DNA of 33,184 bases from Octopus sinensis (lineage: Eukaryota). The translations under genes and the position numbers were made by a program. Positions 2,745 to 24,355 of this stretch are shown here, piece after piece (the first letter of the stretch is position 1; every line of letters starts with the position of its first letter). Location of the stretch: contig NW_021829605.1 of the NCBI RefSeq assembly GCF_006345805.1, forward strand, positions 1 to 33,184. The letters run 5' to 3'. The notes beneath the pieces were generated by a model that saw only the letters and a program-made list of their open reading frames with translations, had not been told where the DNA came from and ran no database searches.

Positions 2745-3152
2745 TTTACTCTTTTACTCTCTTTTACTTGTTTCAGTCGTTTGACTGCGGCCATGCTGGA
2801 GCACCGCCTTTAGTCGAGCAAATCGACCCCAAGACTTATTCTTTGGAAGCCTAGTACTTATTCTATCGGTCTCTTTTGCCGAACCGCTAAGTTACGGGGA
2901 CGTAAACACACCAGCATCGGTTGTCAAGCGATACTGGGGGGACAAACACAGAAACATATACACACACACATACATATATACATATATACGACGGGCTTCT
3001 TTCGGTTTCCGTCTACCAGATTCACTCGCAAGGCTTTGGTTGGCCCGAAGCTATAGTAGAAGACATTTGCCCAAGATACCACGCAGTGGGACTGAGCCCA
3101 GAACCATGAGGTTGGTAAGTAAGCTACTTACCACACAGCCACTCCTGCGCCT
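2745..3152 (-). mobile_element. SINE family D, full-length copy
   Basis: Minus strand: head AGGCGCAGGAGTGGCTGTGTGGTAAG, CORE-like CTTGGGCAA, short internal TA/TG tract, GTAAAAGA tail. Confidence 0.85.
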
Positions 3153-3420: not shown

Positions 3421-3695
3421 TTGCCGCGTGGAAGGTGTTTGTAAGCCATTTAAGAAACACACAAAAGCCGTTCGATTCACTTCAACATTTAAGTTTAATT
3501 TGTCAAAATATTTTCGTCGCTTTAAGACCGCGACCTGTTCACTGACAAAAAGATGCAGCACGGATTTTTGTCAGTGAACAGGTCGCGGTCTTAAAGCGAC
3601 GAAAATATTTTGACAAATTAAACTTAAATGTTGAAGTGAATCGAACGGCTTTTGTGTGTTTCTTAAATGGCTTACAAACACCTTCCACGCTGCAA
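3421..3695. repeat. Long palindrome: 131-bp arms (1 mismatch) and a 13-nt spacer
   Basis: 3421-3551 is the reverse complement of 3565-3695. Spacer GATGCAGCACGGA. Confidence 0.97.
3567..3617 (+). ncRNA. Minimal type I hammerhead-like motif with G3-C8 core variant (mirror copy 3499-3549 on minus)
   Basis: Stem I TTTGTCA/TGACAAA; core GTGAACA 3574-3580; one extra G; stem II GTCGC/GCGAC; GAAA 3601-3604; 1-bp stem III with palindromic ATAT loop; H17=U at 3610. Confidence 0.6.
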
Positions 3696-3832: not shown

Positions 3833-3886
<54 letters not shown>

Positions 3887-4088
3887 TGTAATAAATAAAA
3901 TATATGCATACATACAAACATATATGTACGTACCTACATACTACATGTATATCTACATGCATAATAAATATATATACACTTGAGTACAGGACACCACAAC
4001 TAGACGTAGAACTCAACGAGAAACGAAAACGGAAAAAACCCATTTTTACAACAGAAAAAACAGTACAGGACATACTACACAAGGAAAA

Positions 4089-4150
4089 TCCCCTATCATC
4101 AGCTGTCACTAGTTCGGCTCCAGCGTGTTTCGAAGGCAAGACAGGACACG
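4089..4150 (-). ncRNA. Hammerhead ribozyme candidate with permuted strand order, copy 1
   Basis: Minus strand: CGTGT-C-CTGTC-TTG-CCTTC-GAAACACG-[small hairpin]-GACAG-CTGATGA-TAGGGG. GUC site at C=4145. Confidence 0.7.
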
Positions 4151-4479
4151 ACTCACTAAACTAGTCCTTCCTGCGAGAGAATTAAAATAAAATTGCCTCG
4201 CAGAGGGGTTTAACAAAGCAAGAAAAATGTATCACAAACAGGACGTAGAAACGATACAAATAAAACTACAAAATAAAATACAAGATAAAAATACATGTAC
4301 AAGAAAATACAATACGAGAAATAAAAAGAAAATAGAATACGAGAAATAAAAATAATAATAAACAAGAAAACAAACGAAAAGGCCTTTTTTCTGGCTGAGA
4401 CGAAGGAGATTCTAGCAGCGCATGAGAACACAAATGTGTGTCTTTATAGTTTGAAAGCCGCGTGTAAAAGGAAGTGGCA

Positions 4480-4543
4480 AAGATGAGGAGGAGTGAGAGA
4501 GAGAGAGATAGAGGAAGACAAGCGGCTGAGAGAGAGATGAGGA

Positions 4544-4585
<42 letters not shown>
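4480..4585. repeat. (GA)n-rich tract
   Basis: Read directly from the sequence. Confidence 0.9.
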
Positions 4586-4586
<1 letters not shown>

Positions 4587-5077
4587 AAGGTAAAGTAAAG
4601 AGAGAAAGAATTTCGCGTCATAATTATATATAAAACAGTACTGGGAGATAACCAAGAAAAAAGCAACAAGAATGGATTAGTAGTTTAGTACAATTGTTTC
4701 ATACTAAGAACAATTTTATTTAAAGCTGCAAGTATTGCAGCAAATACAAATGTCCAGTATTCATCAGCTAAATCACATATATGTTTTCCAGACATCCTAG
4801 AGAGTGTGTCTATCCTCATGAAGTATTAGGAGTGAGTTCTATGAAATCTAGCTAGAGAATTGAACCATTTTAATACTTCATCAGTATTTAGCCAAAGACT
4901 TAAGGGAAGGATCGGGGTTATTTGGGGTAGAACAGTATCCAAGATAGATTTACTAAGTCGACCAAGGTCTGACTTAGTTGGACAAATAATCCATTCTTGT
5001 TGCTTTTTTCTTGGTTATAATCGCCCCACATTTTTTATGGTTAATACCATAAACAATTCTGGTGCATCTAAGTTAAG

Positions 5078-5233: not shown

Positions 5234-5282
<49 letters not shown>

Positions 5283-5288
<6 letters not shown>

Positions 5289-5416
5289 CGACGGGGTTCT
5301 TTCAGTTACCGTCTAGTAAAATCACTTGCCCAAGGAGCCACGCAAGGGGACTAGACCCGCAACGATGTGGTTGGGAAGTAAGTTTCTTGCCACACAACCG
5401 CACCGTGTGCCCATAT

Positions 5417-5453
<37 letters not shown>

Positions 5454-5580
5454 TATACATACGACGGGGTTCTTTCAGTTACCTCTAGTAAAATCACTTG
5501 CCAAGGAGCCACGCAAGGGGACTAGACCCGCAACGATGTGGTTGGGAAGTATTTCTTGCCACACAACCGCACTGTGCCCA
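5283..5580 (-). mobile_element. Two tandem, internally deleted SINE D 5' halves separated by (TA)n
   Basis: About 5283-5413 and 5456-5580 are near-identical and share the same internal deletion relative to 2985-3152. Confidence 0.8.
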
Positions 5581-5869
5581 TATATATATATATATATATT
5601 GTGTGTGTGTGTGTGTGTGTGGTGTGTGTGTGTGGGTTGTGTGTATGTATGTATGTATGTATGTATGTATGTAGTATGTATGTATGTATGCATGTATGTA
5701 TGTATGTATAGGCATTAATACGTTTCACTGTAATTTTTGTGGTAGTATATCTACAATTTAACATGAGTTATTTCCCTAACAGAATTATGTCAACAACGTA
5801 TGTTTGTGTGTTTGAGTGTGTTTGTGTGTGTATGTGTGTGTGTTTGCACAGAACATGTTGACTAGAGTT

Positions 5870-7500
5870 ACAGACGCAGAGTGTAGATGAGCTGATATAC
5901 ACACAGTACATATGGTAACTGCATAAATAGATACAGTGTGTAGATTTTGATTGGATAGATACACACACAATATCTTGATGTTGACTCGTTAAATAGACGC
6001 AGTATGTAGACGCTGACAGGACTGATAGACAGAGAATGCAAATGTTATGAGTGTAGATAGACACAGTGTGTAGATATTGACTGGAAACATAGACACTGTG
6101 TATAGATATTGGCAGGAAAGATAGACACTGTGTGTAGATATTGACTGGAAATATTGACACAGTGTGTAGATATTGACTAGAAATATTGACACTGTGTGTA
6201 AATATTGATAGGAAAGATAGACACAGTGTGTAGATATTGGCAGGAAATATTGACATAGTGTGTAGATATTGACTGGAAATATTGACACTGTGTGTAGATA
6301 TTGACTGGAAATATTGACATAGTGTGTAGATATTGACTGGAAATATTGACACAGTGTGTAGATATTGACTGAAAATATTGACACTTTGTGTAGATATTGA
6401 CAGGAATATTGACACAGTGTGTAGATATTGACTAGAAATATTGACACTGTGTGTAAATATTGATAGGAAAGATAGACACAGTGTGTAGATATTGACTGGA
6501 AATATTGACATAGTGTGTAGATATTGACTGGAAATATTGACACAGTGTGTAGATATTGACTGGAAATATTGACATAGTGTGTAGATATTGACTGGAAATA
6601 TTGACACAGTGTGTAGATATTGACTGGAAATATTGACATAGTGTGTAGATATTGACTGGAAATATTGACACAGTGTGTATATTGACTGAAAATATTGACA
6701 CTTTGTGTAGATATTGACAGGAATTATTGACACAGTGTGTAGATTTGACTGGAAATATTGACACTGTGTGTAAATATTGATAGGAAAGATAGACACAGTG
6801 TGTAGATATTGACTGGAAATATTGACATAGTGTGTAGATATTGACTGGAAATATTGACACAGTGTGTAGATATTGACTGGAAATATTGACATAGTGTGTA
6901 GATATTGACTGGAAATATTGACACAGTGTGTAGATATTGACTGGAAATATTGACATAGTGAGTAGATATTGACTGGAAATATTGACACAGTGTGTAGATA
7001 TTGACTGGAAATATTGACACTTTGTGTAGATATTGACAGGAAATATTGACACAGTGTGTAGATATTGACTGGAAACATAGACACAGTGTGTAGATATTGA
7101 CAGGAAAGATAGACACAGTGTGTAGATATTGACTGGAAATTTGACTGGAAATATTGACACTGTGTGGTGTAGATGTTGACTGGAAAGATAGAAATATTGA
7201 CACAGCACGTAGTTGTTAACTGGATAGATAGCCATATTGTGTAGATTTTGCCTGGATAGATAGACGTAGAGTGTAGATGTTGACAAGATTGATGCAGTGT
7301 GTAGATGTTGACTAGATAGAAAGACAGCGTGTAGATGCTGACTGGATAGATCGACAGAGGGTATAGATTTTCACCTCATGTAGATAGAGTGTATAGATGT
7401 TGACAGGATAGATGGGCACAATGTGTAGATGTAGAGTGGATTTATAGACACAGTGTGTAGATGTTGACTGGATAGATAGACGAAGTGTGTAGATATTGAA
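5870..7500. repeat. 32-bp minisatellite GTGTGTAGATATTGACTGGAAATATTGACACA
   Basis: Period 32 (e.g. 6481, 6513). Homogeneous core at about 6060-7165 with degenerate edges. Confidence 0.95.
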
Positions 7501-8130
7501 TGAATGGATAAATACAGTTTATAAATGTCAACCTGTGATACATAATATTTAATCATTTGCTATTGAAATTCTGGTTCAAATCCGGGAATCGTTTGTGTAT
7601 GTGTGGGCGCATGCGTACTTCTTGTGTGCCAGCGCGCACAGGTGTTTATGTATGCATGTGCGTGTGTTTGTGCGTAAGTAGGTATATATGTGTGCATGTG
7701 TGTATGTGTGTGTGTGTGTCTGTGTAAATGTGTGCTGTGTGTGCTTGTGTGTCTATGGATCTTAACCCATCTAATATGTCTTCATTTCCTTATTCAGAAG
7801 ATTGACATTTTCCAATTTCCTGTTGGAGAACATCATTCAATTTAGACTCATCAAATACGAAATACGTCGTATAAGAACAGAAGCACTTGGCATGTAATGT
7901 AGCCGTTTTAGAATTCACCTGACCTGCTAATCCTGCACCGAAACCTTTCTTCGAAGTCGATCATTCCCTACCCCCCCCCCGCCCCCGCCGTTAATACCCG
8001 AGCCATTATAGTGTAATTCCTTATCTCTTCATTAACGTAAACCCCAAATGATGGGTTTTATACGTCAATCAATATACTGCTAGTGTTTACCCTATTTACC
8101 TTCTCGTAATCCCTGATCTAGTAATTCATA

Positions 8131-22305: not shown

Positions 22306-22312
<7 letters not shown>

Positions 22313-22506
22313 AATAAAATAGAATATATGCATATATATAAACATATATGTACGTACCTACCTCTACATGTACATATACACGCATATATGTGTACAGGAC
22401 ACCAAAAAGACGTCGAACACATAGAGAGACGAAACACATAGACACAAACCAAGGAACAAGACAAGCAAAAAAAAGGAGAGATACAGGACAATAAGCACAA
22501 CGAAAA

Positions 22507-22572
22507 ATCCCCTTCTTCAGTCGCTAAGATTTCATCTACTAAACGTTTCGAAGGATAAAAGCGAGACGTATA
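22507..22572 (-). ncRNA. Hammerhead candidate with permuted strand order, copy 2
   Basis: Minus strand: TATACGT-C-TCGCT-TTT-ATCCTTC-GAAACGTTTA-[AGAT/ATCT hairpin]-AGCGA-CTGAAGA-AGGGGAT. GUC site at C=22565. Confidence 0.7.
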
Positions 22573-23367
22573 CTTCGAAGAAAAATTCCTTCCCGCGAAA
22601 AGCAAATCAATTAAAATTCTGAGATCTTTTCGCAGAGGGGTAAAAAAAAGCAAGACGGTAACGACAGTACAAACATATAAACAGTAAAAAATATATATAT
22701 AAACAGTGGAAAAATAAATATATAACAGTGAGAGACAGGACAAGGAGAACAAGATAAGAGGGCTGTTAACGCCAGACGAAAAAAGTATTGCAAACGCTGG
22801 ATTATCGTGGAAGACGAGAGAGGGAAAATTTGTCGACCAGAAGCCTTACAAGGCGGGCGAGAAAAGACAGGATAGCAGTTACGACGGAATATCGTCGCAG
22901 ATGGATGACGGGAATGGGGGAGGAGGAGCAAGAGGAAGAGAGAGAAGAAGGGGAATGGTGCGAGGAGACCATGAAGAATGGTGAAAGGGAGAGAGAGAAT
23001 GAAGAATGAGAGAGAGAGGAAGAGACAAGTTAAGTGAGGGAAAAAAAAGACGAAAAAGGGAATGGGAGAGAAAAGAAAGATGCAGAGTCGCGTGAGAGTT
23101 AATATCAAGGCTAACTTGATAAACAGAACAATCTTACTTAATAGGGTGCGTGCGTTTAGTCGTATAATATGTTAATAAAATAGAATATATGCATATATAT
23201 AAACATATATGTACGTACCTACCTCTACATGTACATATACACGCATATATGTGTACAGGACACCAAAAAGACGTCGAACACATAGAGAGACGAAACACAT
23301 AGACACAAACCAAGGAACAAGACAAGCAAAAAAAAGGAGAGATACAGGACAATAAGCACAACGAAAA

Positions 23368-23433
23368 ATCCCCTTCTTCAGTCGCTAAGATTTCATCTAC
23401 TAAACGTTTCGAAGGATAAAAGCGAGACGTATA
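23368..23433 (-). ncRNA. Hammerhead candidate with permuted strand order, copy 3
   Basis: Identical to copy 2. GUC site at C=23426. Confidence 0.7.
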
Positions 23434-23553
23434 CTTCGAAGAAAAATTCCTTCCCGCGAAAAGCAAATCAATTAAAATTCTGAGATCTTTTCGCAGAGGG
23501 GTAAAAAAAAGCAAGACGGTAACGACAGTACAAACATATAAACAGTAAAAAAA

Positions 23554-23619
<66 letters not shown>

Positions 23620-23738: not shown

Positions 23739-24182
23739 TTCGTTTTTGTATATGGTTTGCACACACACACACACACACATACTTGTATTTGCATATATAC
23801 GTGTGTGTGTGTGTATAATTGAATAGCACATGTTCCTTTAAAACTAGTGAAATATAAGCTAAAAATGGACAATATTTCATAGAAAGAAAAAATATATAAA
23901 AGCTTTCATAGGACAATGTTAACTCCAGCTATATAAGACATGTTACGAGGAATGAATTACACATTTTCGTATTTATAAAGTCAAAAACTTGTGATCTTTT
24001 GTAGTAAAAATTCCCATTCAGCTTAAACATATCCGGTTATTTAGAAAATAGTTGGAGAGTGGAGAAACGGGTGGTTTAATCGCAGGGATGCTTCTGTTAT
24101 GATAGAAAGAGTAAAGATGAGCAGCTGCTCAAACAGCTCTGTGCTGAGTGACAAAGAGATGGCTTTTCTTAATTTTTTCGTT

Positions 24183-24355
24183 GTGGCTGTGTGGTAAGTA
24201 GCTTGCTTACCAACCACATGGTTCCGGGTTTAGTCCCACTGCGGGGCACCTTGGGCAAGTGTCTTCTACCATAGCCTCGGGCCGACCAAAGCCTTGTGAG
24301 TGGATTTGGTAGACGGACACTGAAAGAAGCCTGTCGTACATATATATATATATAT
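24183..24355 (+). mobile_element. SINE family D 5' half (resumes at 28144-28297 after the hAT insertion)
   Basis: Head GTGGCTGTGTGGTAAG. The 3' part GTTTGTCCCCCCAACATCGCTTGACAACC follows the transposon. Confidence 0.88.

What the first reader, a model, noticed from the sequence alone, without database searches (positions are those of the whole stretch)
4089..4150. Hammerhead ribozyme with a non-canonical strand order (S1-S3-S2), supported by covariation
Established: a hammerhead junction has three strands, S1 (stem III-UH-stem I), S2 (stem I-CUGANGA-stem II) and S3 (stem II-GAAA-stem III). Types I/II/III are circular permutations of S1-S2-S3. Seen on the minus strand: the order is S1, a 3-nt linker, S3, a small hairpin, then S2. 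Copy 1 here: CGUGU-C-CUGUC uug CCUUC-GAAACACG ... GACAG-CUGAUGA-UAGGGG. Diverged copies at 22507-22572 and 23368-23433: UAUACGU-C-UCGCU uuu AUCCUUC-GAAACGUUUA ... AGCGA-CUGAAGA-AGGGGAU. Stem I changes from CUGUC/GACAG to UCGCU/AGCGA and stem III from CGUGU/ACACG to ACGU/ACGU with pairing kept. CUGANGA, GAAAC and the GUC cleavage triplet are invariant. The weak point is stem II (10.1-11.1 mismatch, G-U pairs). Inference: a pseudoknotted or strand-swapped dimeric hammerhead, plausible because stems I and II lie side by side in the 3D fold. Standard type I/II/III descriptors would miss it. I know of no natural example but cannot exclude prior description.
Basis: partly seen in the sequence, partly recalled or inferred. 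Interest (0 to 1): 0.95.

Follow-up and report, generated by a model that had tools for sequence, protein, structure and literature searches.

The report
Split-core hammerhead in Penelope-like retroelements
A repeated jumping-gene fragment in this animal genome carries what looks like a self-cutting hammerhead RNA wired in an order I could not find described, and the same fold sits in the tails of a class of jumping genes reported to lack hammerheads, though cutting itself is untested.

Summary
The motif is real: 3 hits in the window, 0 in 300 shuffles; 5,696 genomic matches against 7 controls. The S1-S3-S2 order is not new: it is type SGC of Eckert et al. 2023 (PMC10085705). Across about ten diverged families the arm before GAAA pairs with a strand lying upstream of the cleavage strand, restoring G10.1-C11.1 (49 of 79 copies against 3 of 79; 33 of 63 when placed blind, control 7%). 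The bases after CUGANGA pair further upstream, around a hairpin. The core is thus opened between A9 and G10.1 and sealed by a four-way junction, a break the published block model assumes away. The window's copies lie in non-coding, tandem, 5'-truncated, (TA)n-ended repeats. The same fold lies downstream of Naiad-type reverse transcriptase in this genome and, read by eye, in published octopus and coral Naiad tails; nematode Naiads carry type CSG. This may explain the 'missing' Naiad hammerhead. Cleavage is untested; no coding partner of the window's own families was found.

The parts
4090..4208 (-). Copy 1, whole split-core hammerhead fold (family A)
4204..4208 (-). Strand X: 5' strand of new helix A, pairs with the 5 bases after the core (4090-4094)
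   Evidence: predicted in the minimum-energy fold; family-specific pairing
4171..4203 (-). Hairpin H, between X and the stem II strand, no unpaired base on either side
   Evidence: 96% of cells paired, 2 of 4 counted pairs change on both sides
4166..4170 (-). Strand Y: true 5' strand of stem II; G4170 is G10.1
4158..4165 (-). Helix K 5' strand (ties the outer ends of stems I and II; counterpart of the 'I' helix of type SGC)
   Evidence: 7 of 7 pairs change on both sides, 82.5% paired
4140..4150 (-). Block S: stem III 5' strand, U16.1, C17 = 4145 (predicted cut 3' of it), stem I 5' strand
4124..4136 (-). Block G: stem II 3' strand (C11.1 = 4132), GAAA, stem III 3' strand; joined to block S by a 3-nt linker (4137-4139)
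4108..4115 (-). Helix K 3' strand
4096..4107 (-). Stem I 3' strand and CUGAUGA (C3-A9), the front half of block C
4090..4095 (-). Optional extra U (4095; absent or A in other family A copies) and helix A 3' strand
3886..4655 (-). 5'-truncated copy of non-coding repeat family A; fixed 3' end followed by (TA)n; 5' end approximate
22509..22640 (-). Copy 2, whole fold (family B): X 22636-22640, H 22593-22635, Y 22587-22592, C17 22565, stem II 3' strand 22550-22555, core 22514-22520, helix A 3' strand 22509-22513; helix K is weaker here than in copy 1
23370..23501 (-). Copy 3, identical to copy 2, 861 bases upstream on the RNA strand; C17 23426
22310..23562 (-). Family B partial tandem: one full unit (22310-23175) preceded by a 5'-truncated unit, between (TA)n tracts; no retroelement protein match

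Best explanation
The minus-strand RNA folds into a complete hammerhead core built from four strands in the order Y, S, G, C-front. The backbone link A9-G10.1 is absent: G10.1 and the 5' strand of stem II come from upstream, and A9 runs into a new helix A whose partner strand leads through hairpin H into G10.1. Core, stem II, H and A form a four-way junction with no (or one) unpaired base; stem II stacked on the core and A on H would keep the known active-site geometry (inferred). Helix K and the short linker hold stems I and II together as in type SGC. The RNA cuts itself after C17 in cis. In tandem transcripts of a non-coding Penelope-like element two cuts release a unit-length RNA that is probably circularised and copied by a helper reverse transcriptase priming at (TA)n. 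Shown: sequence, copy number, covariation, genomic context. Inferred: 3D stacking, cleavage, circularisation, the helper.
For: With Y placed by helix K alone: 33 of 63 against 91 of 1260 for arms of other families; with X placed by hairpin H alone, helix A holds in 23 of 31 against 170 of 620. In 10 of 10 family majority sequences stem II scores 4-5 of 5 against at most 3.5 for the rival. The base after A9 is G in 10 of 79 copies, whereas Y starts with G in 44 of 49; G10.1-C11.1 is called highly conserved in PMC4209133 and PMC3088659 (passages). Sequence-only cross-family alignment: 84.4% paired, 4 of 5 pairs change on both sides, 0 of 500 shuffles reach the score (rows chosen for good fit, so biased upward). 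Six-helix structure on 27 superfamily copies: 90.5% paired against 41-44% when slid, 17 of 31 pairs change on both sides. Duplex energies favour Y and X pairing in both window variants; the nested fold predicts A and H in both. Position 9/10.1 tolerates an extra base in natural hammerheads. Context: tandem units, fixed 3' end at (TA)n, scattered 5' ends; the same fold 0.7-1.5 kb downstream of Naiad-type RT motifs in 8 of 30 loci, 2 of them by construction; read by eye in published Naiad tails of two octopuses and three corals.
Against: No cleavage data; no hammerhead with helices inserted at A9/G10.1 was found in the papers read, so activity of such a core is unproven. Stem II and helix A hardly vary inside the window's own superfamily, so their support comes from other families. 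Helix A is the least secure helix (control 27%; one of 10 family parses poor). Many copies are decayed: 30 of 79 fail the stem II threshold, and 19 of 98 matches were dropped for weak stem I. Nested folding z-scores are unremarkable (-1.45, -0.69). 7 of 12 upstream partial units of family B begin 5' of the predicted cut and none begins at it, so reverse transcription runs through the site; this fits a religated circle but equally an uncut RNA. No PLE reverse transcriptase or endonuclease match belongs to families A or B in the loci tested, and they share no detectable sequence with Naiad or Neptune-type loci.
Confidence: 0.72

Rival explanations
1. The fold is conserved but does not cut on its own: a hammerhead-derived structure that is inactive, very slow or protein-dependent and serves as a recognition or priming signal for the PLE protein.
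For: Insertions run through the predicted cut site with no pile-up of 5' ends there. PLE hammerheads are reported as poorly active in vitro (PMC4209133 passages). The opened A9/G10.1 link has no tested precedent in what I read.
Against: Every family keeps a complete, pairable core, and related positions in other Naiads hold intact type-CSG hammerheads or twister-like motifs (by eye), which points to selection for cleavage. Caveat: the catalytic words were part of my search patterns, so their invariance is not evidence.
Confidence: 0.13
2. The same helices form, but between two RNA units (strand-swapped dimer in the tandem transcript), because the doubly tethered cis topology is strained.
For: Helix K is tied to stem III by both strands, whose ends are far apart in the crystal structure (a concern Eckert et al. 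raise for one tether). Canonical PLE hammerheads act as dimers. Family B occurs as tandems of up to four or more units.
Against: All helices have 4-10 base pairs available in one unit; no palindromic minimal stem III as in dimeric PLE hammerheads; published SGC and CSG single units cleave during transcription.
Confidence: 0.1
3. Plain type-SGC hammerhead, with stem II formed by the tail after CUGANGA; the upstream pairings are an off-state.
For: In the window's families the tail can make 3-3.5 of 5 pairs with the arm before GAAA; weak or mismatched stems II occur in active hammerheads. The tail region resembles Y plus K in family B, which hints at an old duplication.
Against: No covariation across families; 3 of 79 copies reach 4 pairs; in several families the tail cannot pair with the arm at all (scores 1-2.5); the copies lack the G after CUGANGA that the published SGC descriptor requires.
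Confidence: 0.04

Closest known systems
Type-SGC hammerhead ribozyme (HRIMA-1 and SGC variants; Eckert et al. 2023, PMC10085705; main text parts 1-6 of 8 and parts of the supplement read)
   Same: Order S, G, C; short linker from stem I to stem II; helix binding the other ends of stems I and II; optional extra base after A9.
   Different: In SGC block C is intact (CUGANGA runs into G10.1 and stem II). Here stem II's 5' strand lies upstream of block S and two extra helices close a four-way junction at A9/G10.1. Published SGC examples came from metatranscriptomes only, none from genomes of known organisms; here thousands of genomic copies in an animal.
Type-CSG hammerhead ribozyme (same paper; two sequences from metagenomes)
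   Same: Same circular order of blocks; Y-K-S-G here matches the second half of C, then S, G. Six nematode Naiad tails read by eye as intact CSG.
   Different: The front half of block C has moved to the 3' end. A tandem CSG-CSG repeat would supply Y from one unit and the core from the next (inference).
Naiad clade of Penelope-like elements (Craig et al. 2021, PMC8557442; passages and parts of the supplement read)
   Same: (TA)n targets, 5' truncation, partial tandems, inverted truncated neighbours; 'HHR_core' and 'HHR_half_core' words noted in 3' UTRs; one family in this genome has a 3' end nearly identical to the published octopus Naiad.
   Different: The paper reports no canonical hammerhead and no fold for these words. 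The window's families are non-coding and not alignable to Naiad.
Minimal type I hammerheads of PLE pseudo-LTRs and animal non-LTR retrozymes (PMC4209133; bioRxiv 10.64898/2026.07.22.740005; passages only)
   Same: Hammerhead in tandem, non-coding PLE-derived repeats; extra base between positions 9 and 10.1.
   Different: Those are canonical-order type I motifs working as dimers; this is a multi-pseudoknotted, four-strand fold in 0.86-1.0 kb units.

Membership tests
Hammerhead ribozyme (structural class) | Core words CUGANGA, GAAA and UH each flanked by stems I and III | tested here: met
Hammerhead ribozyme (structural class) | Stem II closed by G10.1-C11.1 next to G12 | tested here: met
   met with the upstream strand Y
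Hammerhead ribozyme (structural class) | Covalent link A9 to 10.1 (at most 1-2 inserted bases) | tested here: not met
   tail after A9 does not pair with the arm before GAAA; it pairs with X
Hammerhead ribozyme (structural class) | Site-specific self-cleavage after N17 | not testable with these tools
   only assembled contigs were available
Hammerhead types I, II, III (Rfam models) | Circular order S-C-G; match to Rfam covariance models | tested here: not met
   no hammerhead family among 90 matches at E up to 1; order is S-G-C
Type-SGC hammerhead | Block order S, G, C with a short linker between stems I and II | tested here: met
   linker 3-6 bases in the families examined
Type-SGC hammerhead | Helix joining the other sides of stems I and II | tested here: met
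   helix K, 7 of 7 pairs covary, but it starts from strand Y
Type-SGC hammerhead | Intact block C: CUGANGA(U)G followed by stem II | tested here: not met
   descriptor; 0 of 3 window copies have G there
Penelope-like element, non-autonomous (window families A, B) | Partial tandems, 5' truncation, fixed 3' end, microsatellite target | tested here: met
Naiad clade (window families A, B) | N-terminal GIY-YIG plus C-terminal RT ORF, or terminal homology to such an element | tested here: not met
   no match in the window or loci L001-L060 and L247-L286
Naiad clade (sister family L074, L186-L215) | Motif downstream of Naiad-type RT on the same strand | tested here: met
   identity to published Naiad judged by eye; no tree built
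Retrozyme-like replication | Unit-length circular RNA in vivo | not testable with these tools
   a unit-length contig in one run cannot be told from a genomic tandem

The most novel reading that the evidence does not exclude
A natural, active hammerhead whose catalytic core is opened between A9 and G10.1 and re-closed by a four-way junction: a permutation outside the six allowed by the published three-block model. It is the processing ribozyme of many Naiad-type retroelements from corals and jellyfish to octopus, nematode Naiads use type CSG, and the split form arose from CSG by the tandem duplication that is built into PLE transposition.
Probability: 0.6. Interest if true: 0.88.

Novelty: new variant of a known kind. 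Interest (0 to 1): 0.8.

Why it matters
It would show that the hammerhead core, treated as three unbreakable blocks, can be broken inside a block and held by a four-way junction, which widens the search space for ribozymes and offers a new insertion point for engineering. It would give the first genomic, animal examples of non-circularly permuted hammerheads that I could find (thousands of copies), and it offers a directly testable answer to why Naiad retroelements, which dominate many invertebrate genomes, seem to lack hammerheads: the descriptors could not see them. One afternoon of in vitro transcription would settle activity.

Tried and rejected
Rfam scan: no ribozyme match, only low-complexity microRNA hits. 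A GIY-YIG fragment 450 bases downstream of one copy (L073) looked like a link to a coding element; its family is a Neptune-type PLE with C-terminal nuclease, and 0 of 29 other loci of it hold the motif within 1.5 kb, so the adjacency is probably shared (TA)n targeting. Search for a coding partner of families A and B: none; apparent hits of one query were to a SINE stretch at its N-terminus. Sequencing runs: no RNA holder listed, 14 of 22 rows guessed as RNA; 4 runs laid were all contigs, which cannot show ends; no verdict on expression or cleavage. A first parse used too narrow a linker range and saw mostly window families; corrected. One of 18 rows (L099) is misaligned in A1 and was left in. 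Literature: 9 searches answered showed no split-core or Naiad-associated permuted hammerhead; two papers that may bear on variants with extra helices were not held (PMC4509812, PMC3334697), and bioRxiv supplements are closed. Twister or other folds in Naiad tails were not analysed.

Full report
Observation. A descriptor for the order S1-S3-S2 with Watson-Crick stems I and III finds three sites in the window, with C17 at 4145, 22565 and 23426, and none in 300 dinucleotide shuffles. A profile of the family finds the same three and no others in the window. Rfam has no hammerhead match at E up to 1. The window is a whole 33-kb contig of a 2.7-Gb animal genome; its Naiad 3' end is nearly identical, by eye, to published octopus Naiads, so I take it for an octopus.

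The order is known. Eckert et al. 2023 (PMC10085705; I read main-text parts 1-6 of 8, and supplement parts 1 and 8 plus search passages) divide the hammerhead into blocks S, G and C and describe type SGC, which is S1-S3-S2, with a linker of typically three bases and an extra helix tying stems I and II; it cleaves in vitro. They assume blocks cannot be interrupted, and found SGC only in metatranscriptomes, none in genomes of known organisms.

The motif is a large repeat superfamily. An exact pattern for the window's G block plus core has 5,696 matches against 7 for the reversed control; the upstream module has 1,254 against 2; a pattern that excludes the window's arm has 893 against 148. I fetched 90 of the 100 listed places of those 893 and 40 of the 100 listed places of the 5,696.

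Upstream of block S every family has a strand (Y) complementary to its own arm before GAAA: GAAGG with CCUUC in the window, GCACC with GGUGC, GGCCG with CGGCC, GACAC with GUGUC in others. The base after A9 is G in 10 of 79 copies; Y starts with G in 44 of 49, which restores the G10.1-C11.1 pair.

What the tail does instead. The bases after CUGANGA pair with a strand X that lies just before hairpin H, and H ends directly at G10.1. With X placed by H alone, helix A holds in 23 of 31 copies against 170 of 620 for foreign tails; this is the weakest control. Nested folding predicts A and H in both window variants and Y with its arm in copy 1, though the overall z-scores are small. Y continues into helix K, whose partner precedes the 3' strand of stem I. 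On 27 copies of the window's superfamily the six helices give 90.5% paired cells against 41-44% when slid; K, I, III and H covary, while II and A are nearly constant there and so uninformative. The architecture is 5'-X-H-Y-K-S-G-K'-stem I-CUGANGA-X'-3'. Core, stem II, H and A meet in a four-way junction at the A9/G10.1 step. That step carries an extra base in many natural hammerheads (PMC4209133 passages; SGC-1 oligos) and an optional base in family A. That the junction stacks II on the core and A on H is my inference.

Context. Families A and B are non-coding units of about 1.0 and 0.86 kb with a fixed 3' end followed by (TA)n, scattered 5' ends, head-to-tail tandems of up to four or more units and inverted neighbours. 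These are the features Craig et al. 2021 (PMC8557442, passages) give for Naiad Penelope-like elements, which they report lack canonical hammerheads though 18 entries carry core or half-core words. In the supplement, read by eye and only over the last 330 or so bases of 50 Naiads, the full split form is visible in 5 (two octopus, three Acropora), its Y-K-S-G-C part in 2 more (Clytia, Morbakka; X out of view), and an intact type CSG with its tying helix in 6 nematode elements; the rest I did not parse or the motif was out of view. I ran no computation on those sequences. In this genome a sister family lies 0.7-1.5 kb downstream of Naiad-type RT motifs in 8 of 30 loci, 2 by construction; the loci end about 1.5 kb after the motif. 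For families A and B no coding partner was found, so their tie to Naiad rests on architecture and insertion pattern only; a young Neptune-type family that lacks the motif could be the helper.

How it most likely works. The tandem transcript is cut after C17 in each unit, giving a unit-length RNA that can be circularised, as proposed for PLEs and retrozymes (PMC6765202 passages; bioRxiv 10.64898/2026.07.22.740005 passages). Against a simple linear template, 7 of 12 upstream partial units of family B start 5' of the cut site and none at it: copying runs through the site, which fits a circle or an uncut RNA. Public runs gave contigs only and decide nothing. The split form is a circular permutation of CSG/SGC opened inside block C; a CSG tandem would give it by taking Y from one unit and the core from the next (inference).

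Novelty. Nine literature searches found the SGC paper but no split-core form and no link of permuted hammerheads to PLEs. A 2026 paper mentions variants with additional helices, citing Weinberg et al. 2015, which I could not read; passages of PMC3088659, PMC10162972, PMC6765202 and PMC6155905 showed no such form. Earlier notes of this scan mention rearranged hammerheads and twisters in Naiad-type elements of other genomes; they are unchecked and not independent support.

Verdict. Real, works like a hammerhead, not a member of types I-III or of SGC as defined; a new variant with a testable bearing on Naiad biology. Fold about 0.9, self-cleavage about 0.75, whole model 0.72. Interest 0.8.

Noticed in passing
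PMC8557442 supplement, nematode Naiad 3' ends: Six nematode Naiads (three Nippostrongylus, Haemonchus, Heligmosomoides, Ascaris) read by eye as intact type-CSG hammerheads with the tying helix; only two CSG sequences were published.
   Followed up: partly
PMC8557442 supplement, Naiad-1_Movir and bivalve Naiad 3' ends: Twister-like words at the same position, suggesting Naiads swap ribozyme classes.
   Followed up: no
PMC8557442 supplement, spider and ostracod Naiad 3' ends: CUGANGA preceded by a strand complementary to an upstream one, with GAAA upstream; possibly further rearranged forms, not parsed.
   Followed up: no
L157-L185 (for example L169, minus strand): Young Neptune-type Penelope-like family with long open RT plus C-terminal GIY-YIG frames and no CUGANGA in the 3' UTR examined; candidate helper.
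   Followed up: partly
window 23135-23145 and 22760-22770 (minus strand): Family B unit begins with a splice-donor-like word followed by a long pyrimidine tract ending in AG, recalling the intron in PLE pseudo-LTRs; untested.
   Followed up: no
L232:2274-2527: A family A fragment is inserted inside the 3' UTR of a Naiad copy.
   Followed up: no
window 3421-3695: Near-perfect inverted repeat, 131-base arms 13 bases apart, MITE-like; source of the top spurious Rfam hit.
   Followed up: no
window 5927-7518: 32-base minisatellite, about 45 units.
   Followed up: no
window 2759-3142, 5237-5599, 24172-24355 and others: Several copies of an abundant SINE-like repeat, some in inverted pairs; name recalled as an octopus SINE, not tested.
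   Followed up: no
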